Below, piece after piece: positions 23,121-40,589 of a stretch of 64,000 nt of DNA (its first letter is position 1; each line of letters starts with the position of its first letter). The position numbers were made by a program, and so were the translations under genes. The notes under the pieces were generated by a model. It did not search any database, was not told the origin of the DNA, and was given only the letters and a program-made list of their open reading frames with translations. The stretch comes from Candidatus Parcubacteria bacterium (GTDB lineage Bacteria; Patescibacteriota; Patescibacteriia; Patescibacteriales; UBA12075), in the NCBI GenBank assembly GCA_002869165.1, contig PKTK01000001.1, positions 382,005 through 446,004 on the forward strand. Direction: 5' to 3'.

Positions 23121-25010
23121 TTATAATTTTATTATTCCACCATCTTTAAGTTCAAATTCTTTTTCGTTAGAAGTATTTTTTTTATTAGATGGTTTAAAAA
23201 CGGGAGGTTTGATATCAACACTTTCATTTTCTTTTGCTTTGGCTTTTTTTTCTGTTTCAGAGTCAATATTTTTACCTTTAAAATTCACTGCTCCTATATT
23301 TAAAGCTTCAGAAAGTGAGAGTTCTGGTTCATTTTTAGGAGCTTTAGCTTGAGCTTCTGGTTTAAAAGCACTGTTTTGCTTAATTTTTTGAGGAGATAAG
23401 CTGTTTTTTTCCTTGATTCTCCTTAACTCTTCTTCTTTGGCAATTCTCCTTTGTTCAGCTTCTTTATTTTTTTCATCTTTAAGTTTGTTTAAACAGTCTT
23501 TGCAATATACGGGTCGGATGCCATCAGGCACAAAAGAGGTTCTGGTGATTGTTCCACACATTGAGCAGTTAGTTTCATTTTTATATACTTCAGTATTTTG
23601 TGTTGGACTTAATTTTTGTTGAGCAATACTTGGTTGATCAGGATTTTGAAAAGTTTTCTGGTTTTGAAAATTTTGGGATTTTTTTGCCCTGGCGTTTTCT
23701 TTTTTTTGTATCATTGCCTGAGCAGTTTCCTCTTCATCGTTGTGCCATTTGGCTATTTTTTCTTCAACACTTGCTTTGTCTTTGGCGTATCTTTCTCTGC
23801 TTACAGTGATTACTTTTTCAACATTCCCGGTTTCCTCATCTTTTGTTAAAGGATGAAGACCTCTGGCTGAAAATGGTTCAGAGGCAATACCGTCAATCAT
23901 TAGTTTTAAATAAAATTCGTATTTTGGTTGATTTACAATGTCTTCTTCTGTGAATGTTGTAGTAAATTCAGGTACTAGTGCCTCGGCATCAGCTGCTCCT
24001 ACTCGAAAAACTACCATTGTGCCAACGTTTCCAAAAACAGCATTGCGGACAACATCACCAAGCTGTTCAATGTACTGGTGAGCCATGATAAAATTCAGTT
24101 TATATTTTCTTGCTTCAGATAAGATATTAGCAAACGAATCAGTGGTAAAATTCTGAAATTCATCAATGTATAAGTAAAAATCTTCTCGTTCACTTTCAGG
24201 AATATCAACTCGACTCATTGCTGCTAATTGAATTTTAGTAATAATCATATTTCCTAGAAGCTGTGAACTATCCTCTCCAATTCTTCCTTTACTTAAATTT
24301 ACAATTAGAATTTTTCTTGAATCCATAATCTCTCGCATATTGATAGTTGATTTTACCTGTCCAACAATATTTCTAATCAAAGCAGTTGAGAGAAATTGTC
24401 CAACTTTATTTTGTATCGGAGATACAGCTTCAGAAGCAAACTTGTCAGCGTAACCAGCAAATTCATTTACCCAAAAGGCCCTAACAACTGGGTCTTCAAC
24501 GTTATCAACAACTTTTTTGCGAAATTTTTTGTCTGAAAGCATTCTGATAACTGAAAGCAAAGTAGAACCTGGATAGTCAAGAGTTGCCAGTAAAGCATTA
24601 CGCAAAATATATTCAAGTCTAGGTCCCCAAGAATCAGCCCACAATTTTTGAAATACACCAATCAGACCTGACGCCACTAAATGTCTAAGGTGCGGTTCTA
24701 CTTGTTCGAGAATATTAAAAGCAATTGGGTATTCATAATCAGCAGGATTGAAATACACAACATCATTAATTCGCTCACTAGGTATAAATTGAATAACCTT
24801 TTCAGCAAGATCTCCATGAGGATCAACAACAGCTACTCCATTCCCTGCTCGTATATCATCAACTATCATATTTTCAAGCACAGTAGACTTACCAACGCCA
24901 GTTTTACCGATTATGTACATATGTCGTCGTCGGTCATCTTGTTTGATGCCAAATTTTCTAAGACTATTTCTATAAGTTGTTTCTGCAAAAACAGTTATTT
25001 CTTTGTTCAT
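23121..25010 (-). CDS. VirD4/TraD/HerA-like P-loop ATPase with Lys/Glu-rich linker and C-terminal zinc ribbon
   Basis: Walker A IIGKTGVGKST, ..VVDPHGDL.., Walker B LYIDEFQNF. C-terminal CSMC-x17-CKDC. No N-terminal TM. Confidence 0.7.
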   Translation of the reverse strand: MNKEITVFAETTYRNSLRKFGIKQDDRRRHMYIIGKTGVGKSTVLENMIVDDIRAGNGVAVVDPHGDLAEKVIQFIPSERINDVVYFNPADYEYPIAFNILEQVEPHLRHLVASGLIGVFQKLWADSWGPRLEYILRNALLATLDYPGSTLLSVIRMLSDKKFRKKVVDNVEDPVVRAFWVNEFAGYADKFASEAVSPIQNKVGQFLSTALIRNIVGQVKSTINMREIMDSRKILIVNLSKGRIGEDSSQLLGNMIITKIQLAAMSRVDIPESEREDFYLYIDEFQNFTTDSFANILSEARKYKLNFIMAHQYIEQLGDVVRNAVFGNVGTMVVFRVGAADAEALVPEFTTTFTEEDIVNQPKYEFYLKLMIDGIASEPFSARGLHPLTKDEETGNVEKVITVSRERYAKDKASVEEKIAKWHNDEEETAQAMIQKKENARAKKSQNFQNQKTFQNPDQPSIAQQKLSPTQNTEVYKNETNCSMCGTITRTSFVPDGIRPVYCKDCLNKLKDEKNKEAEQRRIAKEEELRRIKEKNSLSPQKIKQNSAFKPEAQAKAPKNEPELSLSEALNIGAVNFKGKNIDSETEKKAKAKENESVDIKPPVFKPSNKKNTSNEKEFELKDGGIIKL

Positions 25011-29105: not shown

Positions 29106-30515
29106 TTAATTATTTACAAGCCTTTCCCCTATCCGAAACACATCCCCAGCTCCCATGAGTACACAGAGATAATTTTGGTCAAGCTTTCCGCGTAGATATT
29201 CTTCGCACTTTTCAAGAGTTGGAATATAGATGACATGCAAATCGGGGTTTTGTTCTTCTATTTTTAAGATTAGGTCTTTAGAATGCACTCCACCTTGTTC
29301 TTCTCTGGCTGAGCCGTAGATATCTAATACAATTAATTCGTCTGTGTCAGAAAATGATTTAGCGAATTCATCTATAAGGCCTTTGGTGCGAGTAAAAGTG
29401 TGAGGATGAAACACTGTCAGAACATGTTTTTTGGGATATTTCTTTTTAATCCCAGCAATAGTTGCGCTAATTTCAGTTGGATGGTGAGCATAATCGTCTA
29501 TAATAGTTGCTCCGCGGAATCTGCCCATCATTTCCATACGTCTAGATACCCCCTTGAAATCTTCTAGATGACTTCTTATTTGCACAAGTGGAACATTTAG
29601 TTCAATGCAAGTTGCGATTACCGCTAGAGCATTATATACATTGTGTTCGCCACTCAAGGAAATACTAAAATCTCCAAGCTCATTTGGTCCCTCGTCTTCA
29701 TCAAAAGGATCCACACCAAGCTTTACTTTGAAATATTGCTTATCATCTCTTTGTTCAATATTATATGCCACATAATCTGCTAACTCGTTTATTGCGTAAC
29801 TTATCACTTTGGCCCGGGTATTTACATTAGCAATTCGTTTAACTGTGTCATCATCAAAGTTGGCTACCAAAAATCCATTTTTTGGAATTTTTGTAATAAA
29901 ATCTACAAAAACCTGATTGTAGTCATCTTTAGTCGGAAAGAAATCAGGATGATCATAGTCAATATTATTAAGTAAAACAGCATTAGGATTGTAGTGCTTT
30001 AGTTTGTTTTGGTATTCATCTGCCTCAATCAATAAATAATCAGACGAACCAGTAATCGAGCAACCACCTAGTTGATCTACATTAGCGCCTACCATAACAT
30101 TTGGTGCTAGAAAAGATTTTTCCAAAACATAACCGAGCCAAGCAGTGGTGGTGGTCTTGCCATGAGAACCTGCTACCGCAATACCAAAATATGAGCTAAA
30201 GAAATAGCCAAGTGCTTCAGCAAAGCTATACATTTCAAGTCCTCGTTTCTTAGCCTCAGCGAATTCAATATTAGTTTTTTCATTATAGGCGCTAGAATAT
30301 ATAATAATATGGTCACGTTCTGGTAAATTATCTATACTAAAACCTTGATGTACTTTGATACCACATTTTTTGAGCACCTTGTCAGTCATAAAAACTTCAG
30401 CTGTATCTGAACCCGTTACTTCAAAGCCTTTCTCAACCAAAAACTGAGCTAGCATAGATACACCAACCCCCTTGATACCGATCATATATATTTTTTTCTT
30501 GTTTTTTAAGTTCAT
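29106..30515 (-). CDS. murC: UDP-N-acetylmuramate--L-alanine ligase
   Basis: Start taken at MNLKNKKKIYMIGIKGVGVSMLAQFL..GSD. The Mur ligase P-loop is GSHGKTTTT. The ORF-track N-terminal extension (to 30608) is read-through of hairpin repeat A. Confidence 0.85.
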   Translation of the reverse strand: MNLKNKKKIYMIGIKGVGVSMLAQFLVEKGFEVTGSDTAEVFMTDKVLKKCGIKVHQGFSIDNLPERDHIIIYSSAYNEKTNIEFAEAKKRGLEMYSFAEALGYFFSSYFGIAVAGSHGKTTTTAWLGYVLEKSFLAPNVMVGANVDQLGGCSITGSSDYLLIEADEYQNKLKHYNPNAVLLNNIDYDHPDFFPTKDDYNQVFVDFITKIPKNGFLVANFDDDTVKRIANVNTRAKVISYAINELADYVAYNIEQRDDKQYFKVKLGVDPFDEDEGPNELGDFSISLSGEHNVYNALAVIATCIELNVPLVQIRSHLEDFKGVSRRMEMMGRFRGATIIDDYAHHPTEISATIAGIKKKYPKKHVLTVFHPHTFTRTKGLIDEFAKSFSDTDELIVLDIYGSAREEQGGVHSKDLILKIEEQNPDLHVIYIPTLEKCEEYLRGKLDQNYLCVLMGAGDVFRIGERLVNN

Positions 30516-30525
30516 TTTTTGTTTT

Positions 30526-30630
30526 TTGTTATTCCGTAAGGAGCGAAAGCGACTGTAGGAATCCCTTTGCCGTGCTATTTTCACGTTTAAGGGATTTCTT
30601 CGCTTCACTTCGTTACGCTACGAAATGAAA
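30526..30630 (+). repeat. hairpin repeat unit A (3' flank of GIY-YIG gene 1)
   Basis: TTGTTATTCCGTAAGGAGCGAAAGCGACTGTAGGAATCCC - loop - GGGATTTCTTCGCTTCACTTCGTTACGCTACGAAATGA. The arms are imperfect inverted repeats. Confidence 0.8.
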
Positions 30631-30636
30631 AGTTTT

Positions 30637-30930
30637 TTAAATTAAATCGTGATAAAGATCTTTCCAATGTGGATTAAGCTCTTTAATTATTTTCTCTTTT
30701 TTCTGCCTATTCCAATCTTTCAATTCTTTTTCTCTTTCTAGTGCTTCATTAACATATTTAAATATTTCATAATACACTAGTTTTTTGCATGAGTACTTTT
30801 TTGAAAATCCTTCGATCTTCCCCTCTCTATGTTCTATTATTCTTCTAATTAGTGAATTTGTAAACCCAATGTATAAAGTACCGCTACTGCTAGCAATTAT
30901 ATAAACATAAAATTTATATTCCCTCCTCAT
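30637..30930 (-). CDS. small GIY-YIG nuclease-family protein (97 aa)
   Basis: MRREYKFYVYIIASSSGTLYIGFTNSLIRRIIEHREG.. carries the GIY..YIG..R..H/E core. A GAGGAGGG SD precedes the ATG at 30930. The ORF-track extension is read-through of repeat B. Confidence 0.85.
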   Translation of the reverse strand: MRREYKFYVYIIASSSGTLYIGFTNSLIRRIIEHREGKIEGFSKKYSCKKLVYYEIFKYVNEALEREKELKDWNRQKKEKIIKELNPHWKDLYHDLI

Positions 30931-30940
30931 ATTTTTTTCT

Positions 30941-31037
30941 TTGTCATTCCGTAAGGAGCGATAGCGACTGTAGAAATCCCTTAAACGTGAAAATAGCACA
31001 GTTAAGAGATTTCTTAGCTTCGCTACGAGATGACAAA
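30941..31037 (+). repeat. hairpin repeat unit B (5' flank of GIY-YIG gene 1)
   Basis: The left arm is near-identical to unit A (TTGTCATTCCGTAAGGAGCGATAGCGACTGTAGAAATCCC). The loop is the reverse complement of A's loop. The right arm is GAGATTTCTTAGCTTCGCTACGAGATGACAAA. Confidence 0.8.
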
Positions 31038-31065: not shown

Positions 31066-32142
31066 TTAAGCAATAACCTCATTGGCATCATCTTTTAATA
31101 TATTCTGAATATTTCTAGTATGAACTTCGATTAATTCTCCATCAAACAATTTATTTTTTACAATTTCAGTAAATTTTTGAGCATCTAGATTTTTTTGATG
31201 CAATACTGTCGCTGCATTAGCTTCAGAAAAAATCTTAGCATTTTCTTCTTGATGAGAATCAGGCATAGGGATTAAAATAGCATTTAAGCCAAGCTGAGAT
31301 ATTTCAGTCAAAGAATTCATACCACAACGAGACACGATTAAGTCAGCTACTGAATAAACCTTGATTACTCCAAAAATATCCAAAAATTCAAAGTATTTAT
31401 ATTCAGCTAAATTCTCCATCAAGTCATCATTTTTCTTGTCATTTTTACCTGTGCCTGTAATATGTATCACTTGGCAGTATTTTTTTAGTTTGGGCATAGC
31501 TTCAAGTACAAGATCATTGATGGCTTGCGCTCCTGTTCCCCCGCCCATCACAACCACTATTGGCTTTTCTGTTCTGAGACCAAACTTACTTATAGCTTCC
31601 CTGCGACTTATTTTCATTTTTTTATAATCTTGCCTAAAAGGATTGCCTGTCCAAATTGCTTTTTTACCATAATCATCCAAAGATTTTTCAAAGCTCACGG
31701 TTATAGTAGTAGCCAGGGGTGACATTAGTTTATTAGCTAAACCTGGTCTATAATCTTGCTGATGAACAAAAACAGGTACTCTAAATAGCCATGCTGCCCA
31801 AATAATCGGCACTGAAGCAAATGAGCCAGCCGACATTACTAGGTCTGGTTTGAATTTTAAAATTATAGCAATGGACTGAAAAAAGCCTGCCACTATTAAA
31901 AATGGATCTATAAAATTATTGAACGAAAAATACCTACGAAGCTTTCCGCCAGATATTGCCTGATATTTGAGTCCGTCTCTTTCAATCATGTGTTTTTCAA
32001 CTCCTCCTTTTACTCCAACAAAAAGAAACTCAAAATCATAATTTGAATCAAGTTTGAGAGTTTCAGCTACAGATAATAGTGGCGAAACTGGTCCAGCAGT
32101 CCCTCCGGCTGAAAATATTATTTTCTTTTTTATTTTTTTCAT
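31066..32142 (-). CDS. murG: undecaprenyldiphospho-muramoylpentapeptide beta-N-acetylglucosaminyltransferase
   Basis: N-terminal ..GGTAGPVSPLL.., mid ..GGGTGAQAIN.., GT28 layout, dcw context. Confidence 0.85.
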   Translation of the reverse strand: MKKIKKKIIFSAGGTAGPVSPLLSVAETLKLDSNYDFEFLFVGVKGGVEKHMIERDGLKYQAISGGKLRRYFSFNNFIDPFLIVAGFFQSIAIILKFKPDLVMSAGSFASVPIIWAAWLFRVPVFVHQQDYRPGLANKLMSPLATTITVSFEKSLDDYGKKAIWTGNPFRQDYKKMKISRREAISKFGLRTEKPIVVVMGGGTGAQAINDLVLEAMPKLKKYCQVIHITGTGKNDKKNDDLMENLAEYKYFEFLDIFGVIKVYSVADLIVSRCGMNSLTEISQLGLNAILIPMPDSHQEENAKIFSEANAATVLHQKNLDAQKFTEIVKNKLFDGELIEVHTRNIQNILKDDANEVIA

Positions 32143-32332: not shown

Positions 32333-32370
32333 TTAGGGTACCTTAAAAGGTACCTTTTAAGGTACCCTAA
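32333..32370. promoter_or_regulatory. perfect 38-bp palindrome with three GGTACC cores (candidate operator)
   Basis: TTAGGGTACCTTAAAAGGTACCTTTTAAGGTACCCTAA equals its own reverse complement. It lies 16 nt upstream of the AbrB-type gene start. Confidence 0.6.
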
Positions 32371-32746: not shown

Positions 32747-32838
32747 TTGTCATTTAGAATCCCTTTAGGGTGAGAAATCTTTAATGCGTTTAGAGTGGCA
32801 CGTATTATAGATCTCTCGCATCCGCTCGAGATGACAAA
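32747..32838 (+). repeat. hairpin repeat unit C (3' flank of GIY-YIG gene 2)
   Basis: TTGTCATTTAGAATCCCTTTAGGGTGAGAAATC...ATTATAGATCTCTCGCATCCGCTCGAGATGACAA. The last 34 nt are identical to unit D. Confidence 0.8.
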
Positions 32839-33188
32839 TTTTTTATGTCTTCAAGAATTTCTTTATAGTTATTTTTGTTTATTCCGTAGCTGTCAAATAT
32901 TTCTGCACTTAAATCGTTTTGTTCAGGATTTATTTCGGAAATTAATGCAATCTTTTTTTCTCTTCGCCATTTTTTAATTTCTTTTTCTCTATTAATTGCC
33001 TGATCAATATACCTGTAATACTCATAATAGACTAAATATTTTAGTGAGTATTTTTTTGTAAAATTACTCCCGAAACCTTCTCTATGTTCAATAATTCTTC
33101 TAAGGATATTATTTGTTAATCCTGTATAGTATGTTGTCCTATTAAAATTTGAAACTATATAAATATAGTACCTATACTCCTTTTTCAT
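32805..33188 (-). CDS. small GIY-YIG nuclease-family protein (127 aa)
   Basis: MKKEYRYYIYIVSNFNRTTYYTGLTNNILRRIIEHREG.., with a GGAGGG SD before the ATG at 33188. The 3' end runs into repeat C, and the ORF-track N-terminal extension is read-through of repeat D. Confidence 0.8.
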   Translation of the reverse strand: MKKEYRYYIYIVSNFNRTTYYTGLTNNILRRIIEHREGFGSNFTKKYSLKYLVYYEYYRYIDQAINREKEIKKWRREKKIALISEINPEQNDLSAEIFDSYGINKNNYKEILEDIKNLSSRADARDL

Positions 33189-33213
33189 TTCCCTCCTTAA
33201 TAATTTAATTATT

Positions 33214-33297
33214 TTGTCATTTCGAACGAAGTGAGAAATCTTTAATATGTTAAAATTGCACGAATTATAGATCTCTCGCATCCGCTCGAGATGACAA
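33214..33297 (+). repeat. hairpin repeat unit D (5' flank of GIY-YIG gene 2)
   Basis: TTGTCATTTCGAACGAAGTGAGAAATC - loop - GATCTCTCGCATCCGCTCGAGATGACAA. The arms pair over ~25 nt with a few mismatches/wobbles. Confidence 0.8.
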
Positions 33298-36485: not shown

Positions 36486-38222
36486 ATGTTTTCCGATAGA
36501 CAAATAAAAGAAATATTAGTAAGCAATGAAATTATCAACCTTGATGATTTCAATAAACATTCTAAGGAAGCCAAAACTTTAGGCAAAAGACTTGAAAATT
36601 ATCTATCTGAAAAAAAGATAATATCTGGAGATGCTTTATATGAAAATGCTGCTAATTATTACAAGGTTCCTTTTATTAATTTAAAAAACCAAACCATCAG
36701 AAAAGATGTGCTTTTATCTATTCCAGAAAAAATTGCTAGTACTCACAAGATAATTGCCTTTGATGCTGATGATAAAAAAATCAAAATTGCCTTGAGTAAT
36801 CCAGAGGATATTGAAATTCTTGAGTTTATCAAAAAGAAAACCGGTTTAGATGTAGAAATCAATCTAACCTCCCCCTCTCAAATAAATGATGTTATTAAGC
36901 AATATCACAAAAGTTTAAAAGCAGAATTTGATTATTTGTCAGGAGACAAAGCTGATAAACTTGGGAAGGTTAGTGACGACAAAGATTTAAAAAAATTAGC
37001 CGAAGATTTGCCAGTTGTTCGTATTGTTGATACCTTGCTTGAATACTCTGTTTTAGAAGGTGCTTCTGATATTCATATCGAACCAGAAGAAAAAAAAGTG
37101 TCTGTTAGGTATAGAGTTGATGGAGTATTGCAGAATGTTATGGTGCTTCCAAAAACTGTTCAATCTGGTATTATAGCTCGTATTAAAATTCTTTCAAACT
37201 TAAAAGTTGACGAACATAGATTACCCCAAGATGGTCGTTTCAAAATAACCACTAACGACTATAAGGTTTCTTTTCGTGTTTCAATACTTCCAACATTTGA
37301 TGGTGAAAAGATAGTGATGCGTCTTTTGAATGAAAAAGCCCAAACATTAACCCTTGAGCAACTTGGTTTTCAACCTGGACCATTTCAAATAGTTAAAAGA
37401 AATGTGGCAAAACCAAATGGAATTATTCTTGTTACTGGTCCAACTGGTTCTGGTAAAACTACCACCCTATACACAATTTTAGGAATCCTAAACACTCCCA
37501 AAGTCAATATATCCACCATCGAAGATCCAATTGAATACCGCATGGAACACGTTAATCAATCTCAGGTTAATTCTAAAATTGGCTATACCTTTGCAGCTGG
37601 ACTTAGAGCTTTTTTACGTCAAGATCCAGATATTATCATGGTTGGTGAAATTCGTGATCAAGAAACAGCTGAAATTGCTATTCATGCTGCTATGACTGGT
37701 CATGCTGTATTATCAACAATTCACACAAATGATGCTGCCACAACCATGCCTAGATTAGCTGAAATGGGTGTACCGACTTTTTTGATTGGATCTACCATGA
37801 ACTTGATTGTTGCTCAAAGATTGGTTCGTAAAATTTGCACGGGCTGTATTCAGTCATACAACCTAGGAGAAGAAGAGATTAAAGAATTAGAAAAACAGCT
37901 TGATATTGATAGTATTCTAAATACTCTTGAAAAAGAAAAATCAATCATGGATGCTAAGAAAGGCCTTAAAAATTTACTTTTTTATCGTGGCAAAGGTTGT
38001 AAGAAATGTAACAACTCAGGTTACAAGGGTCGTATTGGAATATATGAGATTTTGGAAAACAGCGAGGAAATTAGTTCAATAATATTACGCAACGGAAGTG
38101 CTAGTGAATTAAAAAAAGAAGCCTTAAGTAAAGGCATGCTTATGATGGTTGAAGATGGTTTTATTAAAGCAAAAAATGGTGTTACCACCTTAGAAGAAAT
38201 TTTGAGAGTTACTAAAGAATAA
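36486..38222 (+). CDS. pilB: type IV pilus assembly ATPase (GspE/PilB family)
   Basis: T2SSE N-domain, Walker A GPTGSGKTTT, Asp/His boxes, tetracysteine CTGC...CKKC. Confidence 0.9.
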   Translation: MFSDRQIKEILVSNEIINLDDFNKHSKEAKTLGKRLENYLSEKKIISGDALYENAANYYKVPFINLKNQTIRKDVLLSIPEKIASTHKIIAFDADDKKIKIALSNPEDIEILEFIKKKTGLDVEINLTSPSQINDVIKQYHKSLKAEFDYLSGDKADKLGKVSDDKDLKKLAEDLPVVRIVDTLLEYSVLEGASDIHIEPEEKKVSVRYRVDGVLQNVMVLPKTVQSGIIARIKILSNLKVDEHRLPQDGRFKITTNDYKVSFRVSILPTFDGEKIVMRLLNEKAQTLTLEQLGFQPGPFQIVKRNVAKPNGIILVTGPTGSGKTTTLYTILGILNTPKVNISTIEDPIEYRMEHVNQSQVNSKIGYTFAAGLRAFLRQDPDIIMVGEIRDQETAEIAIHAAMTGHAVLSTIHTNDAATTMPRLAEMGVPTFLIGSTMNLIVAQRLVRKICTGCIQSYNLGEEEIKELEKQLDIDSILNTLEKEKSIMDAKKGLKNLLFYRGKGCKKCNNSGYKGRIGIYEILENSEEISSIILRNGSASELKKEALSKGMLMMVEDGFIKAKNGVTTLEEILRVTKE

Positions 38223-38236
38223 ATTAAATAAAGTAT

Positions 38237-39409
38237 ATGCCTGTAGATTTTTCAAAAAAGAATGTTGACTCCAAAGAGGAGGAGGAGTCAAGTTCAAAAA
38301 AAAGAAATAAGAAAAGCTCAGAAAATAACTCGTCGCCAATGGATAAGATCAATAGATGGCTTTTACGTTTTTCAAAAGTACCTCTAAAAGAAAAGGTTTT
38401 TTTTGTACAAAACCTAGGCCTCATGCTTCGTTCTGGAATTTCTCTGTCTATTGGTCTCAAAACTCTTGCCAATCAAACAAGCAACAAAAGACTAGCAGAA
38501 ATCCTAAATAATGTTGGTGAGGAAGTTGAAAAAGGAAACAGTTTTGGGGATAGTCTTAAAAAACACAAAAATGTTTTTGGTGATATGTTTATTTCTATGG
38601 TTGAAGCTGGAGAGTTGTCTGGTAAGCTTGAAGATGTTTTGGTTCAGCTTCATATCCAAATGAAAAAAGAAAATGCTCTTATTTCCAAAGTAAAAGGGGC
38701 TTTAACTTATCCAGCTGTTATCATATTTGCAATGTTGGGAATCGGAACATTCATGATCGTTTTTGTTGTGCCAAAGATTACGGCTATGTTTGATGAAATG
38801 AATGCAGAACTCCCCTTACCAACCAAAATTTTAATTAAAACAAGTGAAATTGTCATTGATAATGGTATACTTACTATAATACTGCTTACTGTACTTATAT
38901 TTAGTTTTTTTAAAGCAATTAAAACTGAAAAAGGCAAATTTATTTTTCAAGCTTTTTTGCTTAAACTACCTATCTTTGGTCCGATCATGAAAAAGATAAA
39001 TACTGCTAGATTTGCTAGAAATATAAGTTCTCTTTTAAAAACTGATATTATGATTATTAAATCATTTCAAATTACAGCAAATGTACTTGGAAATCTGCAT
39101 TATCGTAGAGCTTTGTTAGCTATGGCACAAAAGATAAAAAAAGGTTAAAAGCTCAATGAAACAATTAGCCAGTATCCAAATTTATTTACTCCAGTGGTAG
39201 CGCAAATGGTAGCCATTGGCGAGGAAACTGGTGAACTTGATAGTATTCTTGAGGAACTAGCTGGTTTTTATGAAGAAGAGATAGATCTTATTATGGATAA
39301 TCTTCCAGCAATCATCGAGCCGGTTTTAATTCTAGCTCTTGGTGTTGGTGTTGGCGGCGTAGCTATCGCCATTATTATGCCTATGTATTCAATTACCTCG
39401 GCTATTTAA
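38237..39409 (+). pseudogene. pilC: type IV pilus platform protein PilC (GspF family) interrupted by one in-frame TAA
   Basis: The ORFs 38237-39148 and 39194-39409 are in the same frame. Read-through gives ..AQKIKKG*KLNETISQYPNLFTPVVAQMVAIGEETGELD.., which parallels the first GspF repeat ..EEVEKGNSFGDSLKKHKNVFGDMFISMVEAGELSGKLE.. Confidence 0.8.
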
Positions 39410-39425
39410 TTTAGAACAAAACTAG

Positions 39426-40589
39426 ATGTTAAAGTTATTTAACTCAAAACAAAATATATTTGGTCTTGATATTTCAGATAAAACCTTAAAAATAGTTCAA
39501 ACCAAAAAATCAGGAGACAAGACCAAAATTCAGGCGATTGGTAGATATAAACTTAAGGATAAGGTTATTGTAAATGGAGAGATCAGGGATCCTGAGGAAT
39601 TTGTCAATTCTGTAAAGGAGTGTATAAAAAAACCTATCTTTGGCTCAATCACTACTGACTTGGCAGTCATGTCTCTACCTGAAAAAAAATGTTTTATCAA
39701 ATCAATTCAAATTGAAAAAGGTCCAAATTCAATTGATGATCTAATTGGTAGTGAAATTGAAAAGTACTTTCCTTTTTCAAAAGATGATATTTACTACGAC
39801 TGGGAAATTTTCAATGAATACTCGGATTATTACGATGTGTTGGTAAGCGCAGCTCCAAAATATATTGTTGACTCTTATATTGAAAATGCTAGTAAAGCTG
39901 GTTTGTCAGTTGTAGCTATTGAGCCTGAGTCAGTAGCTATCTGCAGAGCTTTAACCAAAAAAGCTGAAAAGAAAAGTAAGAACAATGAAGCACCCACATT
40001 CGCAATCATTGATATTGGCGCAGTTGAAACCTTTATGGTTATATCTTCAAATTCATCCATTATCATGTCTATGGGGATTGATGTATCAGGTCAAGAAATA
40101 ACGGAAAAAATTGCTACTACTCTTCAAATAAATGAATCTCAAGCAGAAAAAGCCAAGATAATTTGCGGATTAGATAAGACCAAGGCTGAGGGAATTATTT
40201 ATGAAATCCTTCAAGAAATGATTGAAAGAATGAATTCTAAAATTCAAAGTATTATTAACTTTTACAAAGACAACTACCCTGATTTTCCTGATATCGAGTT
40301 TGTATCTATCTCTGGAGGAGGATCTGATGTAAATAGTTTACATGAAGCTATTGCAGAAAGATTAAAACTTGAAATTAAAGACGCAGATGTATTTACTAAT
40401 ATAAATGAAGATATAGAGAAATATTCTGATAGTTTTACAAAAACACATAATTTAAATACAGATGTTTTATCAAAGCCTTCTAAAAATAATAAAAAAAGTT
40501 CTATAGTACCTGAAACAATTTCAAGCAAGCACAATTCCTCGCTTAGCTATGTAACATCAGTTGGCTTAGCTTTGCGAGAAAATTTATAA
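39426..40589 (+). CDS. pilM: type IV pilus assembly protein PilM (actin-like ATPase fold)
   Basis: N-terminal ..FGLDISDKTLKIV.., position after pilC, 387 aa. Confidence 0.75.
   Translation: MLKLFNSKQNIFGLDISDKTLKIVQTKKSGDKTKIQAIGRYKLKDKVIVNGEIRDPEEFVNSVKECIKKPIFGSITTDLAVMSLPEKKCFIKSIQIEKGPNSIDDLIGSEIEKYFPFSKDDIYYDWEIFNEYSDYYDVLVSAAPKYIVDSYIENASKAGLSVVAIEPESVAICRALTKKAEKKSKNNEAPTFAIIDIGAVETFMVISSNSSIIMSMGIDVSGQEITEKIATTLQINESQAEKAKIICGLDKTKAEGIIYEILQEMIERMNSKIQSIINFYKDNYPDFPDIEFVSISGGGSDVNSLHEAIAERLKLEIKDADVFTNINEDIEKYSDSFTKTHNLNTDVLSKPSKNNKKSSIVPETISSKHNSSLSYVTSVGLALRENL

What the first reader, a model, noticed from the sequence alone, without database searches (positions are those of the whole stretch)
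30566..31005. The loop of hairpin unit A is the exact reverse complement of the loop of unit B while the arms keep the same orientation
Units A and B are direct repeats by their arms. The left arms, TTGTTATTCCGTAAGGAGCGAAAGCGACTGTAGGAATCCC and TTGTCATTCCGTAAGGAGCGATAGCGACTGTAGAAATCCC, are clearly distinct from their right arms. Yet A's loop GTGCTATTTTCACGTTTAA (30572-30590) is the perfect reverse complement of B's loop TTAAACGTGAAAATAGCAC (30981-30999).

This is what recombination between the inverted arms (..ATCCC / GGGAT..) would produce, so the loop may be an invertible segment captured in both states. The loop carries a TGcTATTTT string (extended -10-like). In unit B it points toward the GIY-YIG gene. 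In unit A it points away from murC. Orientation could therefore matter for expression; this last point is speculative.
Basis: seen in the sequence. Interest (0 to 1): 0.55.

Follow-up and report, generated by a model that had tools for sequence, protein, structure and literature searches.

The report
Flipped hairpin tip beside Ssn nuclease gene
Two palindromic repeat units flank a small GIY-YIG (Ssn-type) single-strand nuclease gene inserted between murG and murC of a Parcubacteria genome, and the tip of one unit has been flipped by a small hairpin inversion that is real but fixed and probably passive, not an on/off switch.

Summary
Units A (30527-30630) and B (30942-35) are direct repeats by their arms. 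A central segment of 17-43 nt is inverted between them, and the exact reverse-complement match runs 28 nt.

The units are not a new kind of element. Each is a pair of inverted, divergent SRM-like hairpin motifs (TGTCAT...ATGACA). They flank a 97-aa single-domain GIY-YIG gene that is 49% identical to Neisseria SsnA. This is the SRM-ssn-SRM layout published in 2025 (PMC11893778). A second such cassette lies 2 kb away. The closest murG relative has no cassette, so the whole block is an insertion.

Units B, C and D and a relative (L174) share one spacer orientation, so unit A carries the derived flip. Four other assemblies of this organism show the same orientation at both sites. No recombinase lies within about 12 kb. 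The promoter scan reports nothing in the spacers.

The best explanation is a one-off hairpin-mediated small inversion (template switch or recombination between the inner stem arms). This is known from plastid DNA and from bacterial rRNA hairpins. The idea of an active switch with a promoter is not. Interest is low to moderate.

The parts
30527..30630 (.). Unit A, a composite palindromic unit. Left SRM-like arm 30527-30565 (TGTTAT.., a degenerate TGTCAT), 25-nt spacer 30566-30590, right arm 30591-30630 (..ATGAAA). It lies between the ssn stop (30637) and the murC start (30515).
   Evidence: Folds as a long DNA hairpin with a 7-nt tip, z = -3.5.
30557..30599 (.). Segment of unit A that is inverted relative to unit B. 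The maximal extent is given here; the minimal extent is 30570-30586. Breakpoints are not resolvable within the symmetric inner stem AGGAATCCC / GGGATTTCT.
   Evidence: I1: 43 nt, 88%; 28 nt exact; breakpoint scan: 14 equally good nested solutions.
30637..30930 (-). ssn gene g1. It encodes a 97-aa single-domain GIY-YIG protein of the Ssn family (site-specific ssDNA nucleases).
   Evidence: Only Pfam PF01541, E = 9e-16. 49% identical to Neisseria SsnA over the full length, E = 1e-30, with Y6/Y17/E64 equivalents conserved. PDB relatives are UPF0213 1zg2 and 1ywl.
30942..31035 (.). Unit B, a composite palindromic unit. Left arm 30942-30980, 25-nt spacer 30981-31005, right arm 31006-31035. It lies between the murG stop and the ssn start (30930).
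   Evidence: DNA hairpin z = -5.0.
30972..31014 (.). Segment of unit B that corresponds to the inverted segment of A. The minimal extent is 30985-31001.
29106..30515 (-). murC, the host gene downstream of the cassette on the transcribed strand.
   Evidence: Pfam Mur_ligase, Mur_ligase_M and Mur_ligase_C.
31066..32142 (-). murG, the host gene upstream of the cassette. In the closest relative, murG overlaps murC with nothing between them.
   Evidence: Pfam Glyco_transf_28 and Glyco_tran_28_C. L165 gene table.
33215..33296 (.). Unit D, upstream of the second ssn gene. Its spacer has the same orientation as B.
32805..33188 (-). Second ssn gene g2 (127 aa). It is 50% identical to g1 and 38% to Neisseria SsnA. 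Its C-terminal tail is read from unit C.
32748..32836 (.). Unit C, downstream of g2. Its right arm is 97.5% identical to that of D over 40 nt, and its spacer has the same orientation as B and D.

Best explanation
Units A and B are the hairpin repeats that travel with an Ssn-family GIY-YIG gene. Each unit is two divergent SRM-like motifs (5'-TGTCAT + stem-forming arm + ..AATCYC) facing each other across a 25-nt spacer. One unit sits on each side of the ssn gene.

The whole block B-ssn-A was inserted into the murG-murC junction of a Candidatus Parcubacteria genome.

After the two units arose as direct repeats, the hairpin tip of unit A was inverted once. The inverted segment is 17-43 nt, centred on the axis of the palindrome. 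The likely cause is that the quasi-palindrome folds during replication or repair, so that either the polymerase switches template across the stem or the two inner stem arms (AGRAATCCC / GGGATTTCT) recombine. This reinserts the tip in reverse-complement orientation without changing its length.

The flip is now fixed in the population. It leaves both flanking SRM-like arms intact, so it is probably neutral for Ssn recognition.

Shown: the inversion, its bounds, its fixation across assemblies, the identity of the gene, the insertion status, and the polarity (A is derived).

Inferred: the template-switch or recombination mechanism, and neutrality.
For: - Inversion model: score 63 vs 49 (direct) vs 32 (whole-unit flip). 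Length is preserved and the breakpoints lie inside the symmetric stem.
- Both units fold as long hairpins with a 7-nt tip, z = -3.5 and -5.0.
- Polarity: units B, C and D are in one orientation on the + strand with a homologous right arm (B 85-97 = C 32827-32839), and their spacers resemble each other in that orientation. The relative L174 carries the same GAGCGATAGCGA-type left arm with a GTTGAAAATGGGAC spacer in the B orientation. Only A is flipped.
- The same orientations occur in the window plus four other assemblies.
- Gene identity: 49% identical to Neisseria SsnA, catalytic residues kept. The published SRM-ssnA-SRM architecture is in PMC11893778.
- My own survey agrees. TGTCAY peaks 25-125 nt upstream and RTGACA 25-50 nt downstream of 175 homologues. 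Upstream and downstream flanks match each other in 61% of 148 genes against 1% of 363 shifted controls.
- Insertion: the closest MurG relative (61% identical) has murG overlapping murC.
- Precedent: template-switch loop inversions, including 7-8 nt loops in bacterial rRNA (PMC8794818), and 'flip-flop' small inversions at plastid hairpins (PMC6824564).
- Among about 10 same-locus unit pairs inspected in relatives, all others are collinear (L052, L058, L070, L072, L144, L175, window C/D). The flip is therefore occasional and not systematic.
Against: - Consensus assemblies cannot exclude a minority of flipped molecules.
- After inverting B, three of the six bases next to the tip still differ (A TTTGCC vs TTAACT), while the other 28 nt are identical. 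This uneven pattern is not explained by one clean inversion plus uniform divergence. It could mean an imprecise or ectopic template switch.
- The 8 arms do not match the published degenerate SRM search sequence (0 hits in the window), so their recognition by the encoded Ssn is inferred from architecture only.
- Neutrality is assumed. The spacer carries a TGnTATTTT string whose direction changes.
Confidence: 0.7

Rival explanations
1. Active invertible switch. The spacer flips back and forth by recombination between the inner inverted arms. This re-orients an extended -10-like promoter toward or away from ssn and murC.
For: - Short inverted arms do flank the segment.
- TGCTATTTT reads toward ssn in B and antisense to ssn, away from murC, in A (sequence).
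- L010 has two units 1.4 kb apart whose spacers are also mutually inverted.
Against: - Each site has one orientation in five assemblies.
- No recombinase lies within about 12 kb.
- The segment is 17-43 nt with 9-nt imperfect arms, much smaller than described site-specific invertons (own knowledge).
- The promoter scan finds no site in the spacers.
- In L010 the arms are perfect palindromes, so whole-unit orientation explains that case.
- All other same-locus unit pairs inspected are collinear.
Confidence: 0.07
2. Ectopic copy instead of an in-place flip. The centre of unit A was overwritten by a template switch or gene conversion that copied the opposite strand of unit B, 415 bp away, or of another unit. 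A never inverted its own loop.
For: - The inverted stretch is 28/28 identical to B, while the directly aligned arms are only 90-95% identical.
- The adjoining 6 nt are poorly matched, as expected at a switch junction.
- Units in relatives show nested and mosaic arms (L085; L059; L179 and L174).
Against: Zero mismatches in 28 nt is not significantly different from the 1-2 expected at 5-7% divergence. The outcome is indistinguishable from an in-place inversion with the data in hand.
Confidence: 0.15
3. Nuclease-driven flip. The encoded Ssn nuclease nicks extruded single-stranded hairpin DNA, and repair re-joins the tip in the opposite orientation. In that case spacer inversion would be a by-product, or a function, of the Ssn/SRM system.
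For: - Ssn enzymes bind SRM hairpins in ssDNA and cut nearby (PMC11893778).
- The spacer is bracketed by palindromic TTAA in B (sequence).
Against: - Characterised Ssn enzymes cut a few nt 5' of the motif, which is outside the unit and not at the spacer.
- Only 1 of about 10 unit pairs is flipped.
- The left TTAA is absent in A.
Confidence: 0.05
4. Assembly or sequencing artefact at a palindrome.
For: Inverted repeats can confuse assemblers.
Against: - The perfect inverted repeat around the tip is under 10 nt.
- Identical structure appears in five assemblies from different pipelines and samples that differ by SNPs elsewhere.
Confidence: 0.02

Closest known systems
Ssn nucleases with NTS/SRM hairpin repeats (Chenal et al. 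2025, Nat Commun, PMC11893778). In Neisseria these include the dRS3/NIME repeats.
   Same: - A single-domain GIY-YIG protein of about 95 aa, 49% identical to SsnA, with catalytic Tyr/Tyr/Glu conserved.
- The gene is flanked on both sides by oriented hairpin motifs that begin GTCAT and end ..AAT-C.
- The motifs occur as inverted pairs around a spacer, like dRS3-RS-dRS3 in NIMEs.
   Different: - The arms are AT-richer, longer (30-40 nt) and fail the published degenerate SRM pattern.
- In this 64-kb window the units occur only next to the two ssn genes, with no dispersed copies.
- The host is a Parcubacteria (CPR) genome.
- Activity of these two proteins is untested.
Hairpin-associated small inversions: plastid 'flip-flop' small inversions, and template-switch loop inversions in rRNA and miRNA hairpins.
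   Same: The tip of a stem-loop is replaced by its reverse complement. Length is preserved, breakpoints lie inside the stem, and the flanks stay collinear.
   Different: Here it happens inside a repeat unit of a nuclease-associated element in a bacterial chromosome. It is detected by comparing two paralogous copies, not orthologues.
Site-specific invertible promoters (fimS, hin, Bacteroides invertons).
   Same: Inverted repeats flank a short segment that carries a -10-like string.
   Different: No recombinase, one fixed state per locus, a segment an order of magnitude shorter, and no promoter detected.
REP/BIME elements with RAYT (IS200/IS605-like) genes.
   Same: A small nuclease gene flanked by the palindromic repeats it recognises as ssDNA hairpins. 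This analogy is drawn by the Ssn paper itself.
   Different: The enzyme is GIY-YIG and not a HUH Y1 transposase. Mobility of the ssn cassette is inferred only from its presence or absence.

Membership tests
Ssn nuclease family (GIY-YIG cd10448) | Single-domain GIY-YIG protein of about 90-100 aa with no extra DNA-binding domain | tested here: met
   g1 is 97 aa with only PF01541 (residues 6-79). g2 is 127 aa with only PF01541 plus a tail read from unit C.
Ssn nuclease family (GIY-YIG cd10448) | Homology to Neisseria SsnA at E < 1e-10 (the paper's criterion) | tested here: met
   g1: tblastn 2e-20 against the gonococcal chromosome; pairwise 49% identity, E = 1e-30. g2: 38% identity, E = 8e-22.
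Ssn nuclease family (GIY-YIG cd10448) | Catalytic residues equivalent to SsnA Y6, Y17 and E64 | tested here: met
   They align to Y10, Y20 and E67 of g1. Y20, R30, H34, E67 and N86 are invariant in 33 homologues.
Ssn nuclease family (GIY-YIG cd10448) | Site-specific cleavage of ssDNA only, next to its own hairpin motif | not testable with these tools
   Needs purified protein and oligonucleotides carrying the unit A and B arms.
SRM / NTS hairpin repeats | Match to the published degenerate search sequence HGTCWYN(0-2)YYVSBRHN(0-5)WNVSBRGN(0-2)RNCYNB | tested here: not met
   0 matches on either strand of the 64-kb window, and none of the 8 arms match. The same regex gives 9 hits in 3.3 kb of Neisseria. 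Among relatives, 30 of 149 genes have a regex SRM within 300 nt against 3 of 191 controls.
SRM / NTS hairpin repeats | Oriented motif (GTCAT at the 5' end, stem-forming core, ..AAT-C at the 3' end) placed on both sides of an ssn gene | tested here: met
   All 8 arms begin (T)TGTCAT or a one-base variant and end RAATCYC or GAGATC. They flank both ssn genes.
SRM / NTS hairpin repeats | Many dispersed copies in the genome | tested here: inconclusive
   Only 4 units in 64 kb, all adjacent to ssn genes. The rest of the genome is not available here.
Site-specific invertible DNA switch (inverton) | Both orientations present at the same locus in a population | tested here: not met
   A single orientation per locus in the window plus 4 assemblies. 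Consensus only; reads were not examined.
Site-specific invertible DNA switch (inverton) | Cognate tyrosine or serine recombinase encoded nearby | tested here: not met
   Pfam annotation of the ORFs of at least 130 aa in 18-40.6 kb (plus several shorter ones near the cassettes) shows Mur enzymes, FtsW, NUDIX, DUF1294, a MazE-like protein, a sigma factor, type IV pilus proteins, a P-type ATPase and a TrwB-like protein. There is no recombinase.
Site-specific invertible DNA switch (inverton) | Promoter inside the invertible segment | tested here: inconclusive
   The scan finds no sigma-70-type site in either spacer. It requires a -35 match, so the TGnTATTTT string as an extended -10 is untested.
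Hairpin-loop small inversion (template-switch or flip-flop) | The inverted segment is the tip of a stem-loop, breakpoints lie in the stem, length is preserved, and the flanks are collinear | tested here: met
   Breakpoint scan, DNA folds, and 25-nt spacers in both units.
REP/RAYT | HUH Y1 (IS200/IS605-type) transposase gene flanked by REPs | tested here: not met
   The flanked gene is GIY-YIG.

The most novel reading that the evidence does not exclude
In CPR bacteria, Ssn cassettes are flanked by composite units (two inverted SRM-like arms plus a spacer). On this reading, the spacer of these units is a recurrent flip-flop element. Hairpin extrusion and Ssn nicking of the ssDNA form would promote inversion. 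The direction of the TGnTATTTT element would then decide between sense transcription of ssn and the downstream host gene, and antisense transcription into ssn. That would be a recombinase-free phase switch built into a nuclease-associated repeat.
Probability: 0.05. Interest if true: 0.6.

Novelty: new member of a known kind. Interest (0 to 1): 0.25.

Why it matters
- It places two Ssn/SRM-type cassettes in a Candidate Phyla Radiation genome. They are inserted inside the conserved cell-wall (mur/ftsW) operon.
- Their hairpin arms fall outside the published SRM search pattern, so pattern-based surveys will undercount such elements in AT-rich lineages.
- The flipped tip is a clean bacterial example of hairpin-mediated small inversion inside a repeat unit. 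This matters practically because such flips mimic clusters of substitutions and can mislead alignment of repeat families. It does not by itself reveal a new mechanism.

Tried and rejected
- Whole-unit inversion of A relative to B. Rejected: score 32 vs 63.
- Known RNA families. No Rfam hit on the units at gathering threshold or at E <= 5.
- Intrinsic terminators or promoters at the units. None reported.
- 'Hybrid unit' test. I asked whether the left arm of one unit pairs better with the right arm of the other, as a Campbell-type or cassette-type insertion into a resident unit would predict. There was no signal.
- A conserved, oriented spacer motif (GTGMWATTTTCAC) across relatives. With 12 CPR-type units the spacers are too variable and too palindromic to support it. 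I dropped it as evidence, except for the within-genome B/C/D comparison and L174.
- I first took the GIY-YIG/hairpin association to be undescribed, because four literature searches found nothing. A Neisseria homologue embedded in dRS3 repeats led to the Ssn paper, which already reports it.
- Integron attC cassette analogy. Considered and set aside: no integrase and no GTTRRRY core sites.
- NCBIfam: no family for g1.
- Phage collection: only weak partial hits.

Full report
**1. The observation**

- Unit A spans 30527-30630: TGTTATTCCGTAAGGAGCGAAAGCGACTGTAGGAATCCC | TTTGCCGTGCTATTTTCACGTTTAA | GGGATTTCTTCGCTTCACTTCGTTACGCTACGAAATGAAA.
- Unit B spans 30942-31035: TGTCATTCCGTAAGGAGCGATAGCGACTGTAGAAATCCC | TTAAACGTGAAAATAGCACAGTTAA | GAGATTTCTTAGCTTCGCTACGAGATGACA.
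- The 19-mer at 30572-30590 occurs once more in the 64-kb window, on the opposite strand at 30981-30999, against 0.03 matches expected by chance.
- BLAST between the units gives a mosaic: left arms direct (37 nt, 94.6%), centre inverted (28 nt, 100%), right inner arms direct (20 nt, 90%).
- The repeat finder reports the same centre as a 43-nt inverted pair at 88%.

I scored every possible internal inversion of B against A.
- The optimum is a centred segment of 17 nt (30985-31001) to 43 nt (30972-31014), score 63.
- No inversion scores 49, and inversion of the whole unit scores 32.
- The fourteen nested solutions are equally good because the breakpoints fall in the symmetric inner stem.

The informative positions are therefore the tip plus a few asymmetric stem bases. 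After inversion, three of the six bases beside the tip still differ (TTTGCC vs TTAACT).

**2. What the units are**

Both units flank a 97-aa ORF on the minus strand (30637-30930) whose only Pfam domain is GIY-YIG. The order on the transcribed strand is murG - unit B - GIY-YIG - unit A - murC - murB.

A second copy of the same design lies 2 kb away: unit D (33215-33296), a 127-aa GIY-YIG gene (32805-33188, 50% identical to the first), and unit C (32748-32836). It sits between a NUDIX gene and a DUF1294 gene. These four units and two genes are the only ones in the window.

The organism is a Candidatus Parcubacteria bacterium. Its closest MurG relative (61% identity) has murG overlapping murC with nothing between them. 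The whole B-gene-A block is therefore an insertion.

**3. Survey of relatives**

I fetched 160 loci encoding relatives of this protein from species genomes and metagenomes.
- TGTCAY is enriched 25-125 nt upstream and RTGACA 25-50 nt downstream of the gene. Peaks reach 44 per 25-nt bin over a background of 2-3.
- The 260 nt upstream and downstream resemble each other, directly or inverted, in 61% of 148 genes against 1% of 363 shifted controls.
- Two layouts occur. In one, the gene sits inside a split unit (arm - gene - arm; for example L005, L037, L041, L051, L181). In the other, the gene sits between two complete units, as in the window (L052, L058, L070, L072, L085, L174, L179).

Several literature searches found nothing on this association. 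A homologue in Neisseria gonorrhoeae, embedded in CGTCATTCCCGCGCAGGCGGGAATC repeats, then led to Chenal et al. 2025 (PMC11893778). That paper already describes:
- the Ssn family (cd10448) of single-domain GIY-YIG site-specific ssDNA nucleases;
- their hairpin recognition motifs (NTS in Neisseria, a superset of dRS3; SRM in general);
- the SRM-ssnA-SRM architecture, with cleavage a few nucleotides 5' of the motif on one strand only;
- a role in limiting natural transformation.

The window protein g1 is 49% identical to Neisseria SsnA over its whole length (E = 1e-30) and keeps the catalytic Y/Y/E. g2 is 38% identical. The broader system is therefore known.

One difference is worth recording. 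The published degenerate SRM pattern gives no hit anywhere in the window, including all eight arms, although it finds 9 sites in 3.3 kb of Neisseria. Among the relatives, it finds a site near only 20% of genes. These arms are divergent, AT-rich SRM-like motifs.

**4. Which state is derived, and is it switching?**

Polarity:
- Units B, C and D lie in the same orientation on the + strand and share a homologous right arm.
- Their spacers resemble each other in that orientation: CGTGAAAATAGCAC, TATGTTAAAATTGCAC, GCGTTTAGAGTGGCAC.
- A relative, L174 (protein 71% identical), carries the same GAGCGATAGCGA-type left arm followed by GTTGAAAATGGGAC, again the B orientation.
- Unit A is therefore the flipped copy.

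Switching:
- Four other assemblies of the same organism from four samples (99.9% identical, at least 3-4 SNP haplotypes) have exactly the same orientation at both sites.
- No recombinase is encoded within about 12 kb.
- The promoter/terminator scan reports nothing in the spacers or at the units.
- Among roughly ten same-locus unit pairs in relatives, the others are collinear.
- L010 has two units with mutually inverted spacers, but its arms are perfect palindromes, so the case is uninformative.

**5. Mechanism**

Both units fold as long DNA hairpins (z = -3.5 and -5.0). Inversion of a hairpin tip with preserved length and breakpoints in the stem has two documented precedents:
- template-switch mutations, documented for loops of up to 7-8 nt in bacterial rRNA (PMC8794818);
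- the 'flip-flop' small inversions of plastid DNA (PMC6824564).

I therefore consider a one-off, hairpin-mediated inversion the best explanation (about 0.7). A variant in which A's centre was copied from the opposite strand of B is indistinguishable with these data (about 0.15). It is hinted at by the 28/28 identity next to a poorly matching 6-mer.

Characterised Ssn enzymes cut outside the unit, which argues against a nuclease cut-and-flip. The flip leaves both SRM-like arms intact.

An active promoter switch is not excluded at the read level but has nothing positive in its favour (about 0.07).

**6. Verdict**

The surrounding system is a new, divergent member (CPR host, arms outside the published pattern) of the recently described Ssn/SRM kind. 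The flip is an instance of a known mutational process. Interest is low to moderate.

Noticed in passing
window 32748-33296: A second ssn cassette (unit D - 127-aa GIY-YIG - unit C) lies between the NUDIX and DUF1294 genes. The last 10 or so codons of the gene (..LSSRADARDL) are read from the right arm of unit C. Units C and D share an almost identical right arm but have different left arms.
   Followed up: partly
window 31068: The murG stop codon is polymorphic. The window has TAA on the minus strand (358 aa). All four other assemblies have GAA and read on to 365 aa, ending 7 nt before unit B.
   Followed up: partly
window 32333-32370: A perfect 38-nt palindrome (TTAGGGTACCTTAAAAGGT / ACCTTTTAAGGTACCCTAA, no spacer) lies between DUF1294 and the MazE/AbrB-like gene. 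It is unrelated to the ssn units and could be an operator or terminator. Its only Rfam signal is a meaningless weak miRNA hit.
   Followed up: no
window 23121-25010 and 36486-40589: A TrwB-like coupling protein and type IV pilus genes (PilB-like T2SSE, PilC-like T2SSF, PilM) lie within 10 kb of the ssn cassettes. This may be relevant because Ssn acts on incoming ssDNA during transformation in Neisseria. It may also be coincidence.
   Followed up: no
whole window; L182 as control: The published degenerate SRM search sequence finds none of the eight hairpin arms here. Among relatives of this protein it finds a site near only 20% of genes, whereas 61% have matching flanks. Pattern-based censuses probably miss AT-rich or CPR variants.
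   Followed up: yes
L085 1751-2319: Nested arms. A lone left arm (1751-1780) is 100% complementary over 34 nt to the right arm of the unit downstream of the gene (2291-2324). A complete different unit and the gene lie in between. This suggests insertion of unit plus gene into a resident unit.
   Followed up: partly
L167-L173 (same locus in 7 samples): The region downstream of an identical ssn protein (P0088) differs between samples by a 276-nt tandem duplication that includes one hairpin unit. This is population-level copy-number variation of units.
   Followed up: partly
L174 vs window 30527-31035: The homologous GAGCGATAGCGA-type arm lies 5' of the gene in sense orientation in L174 but antisense in the window. 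The orientation of the ssn gene relative to its flanking units is therefore not fixed among close relatives.
   Followed up: partly
L010 1928-1997 and 3406-3478: Two near-perfect palindromic units 1.4 kb apart have spacers that are reverse complements of each other (CTTTAATGCTATGA vs TCATAACAGCATTAAAA). With symmetric arms, a spacer flip cannot be told apart from a whole-unit flip.
   Followed up: partly
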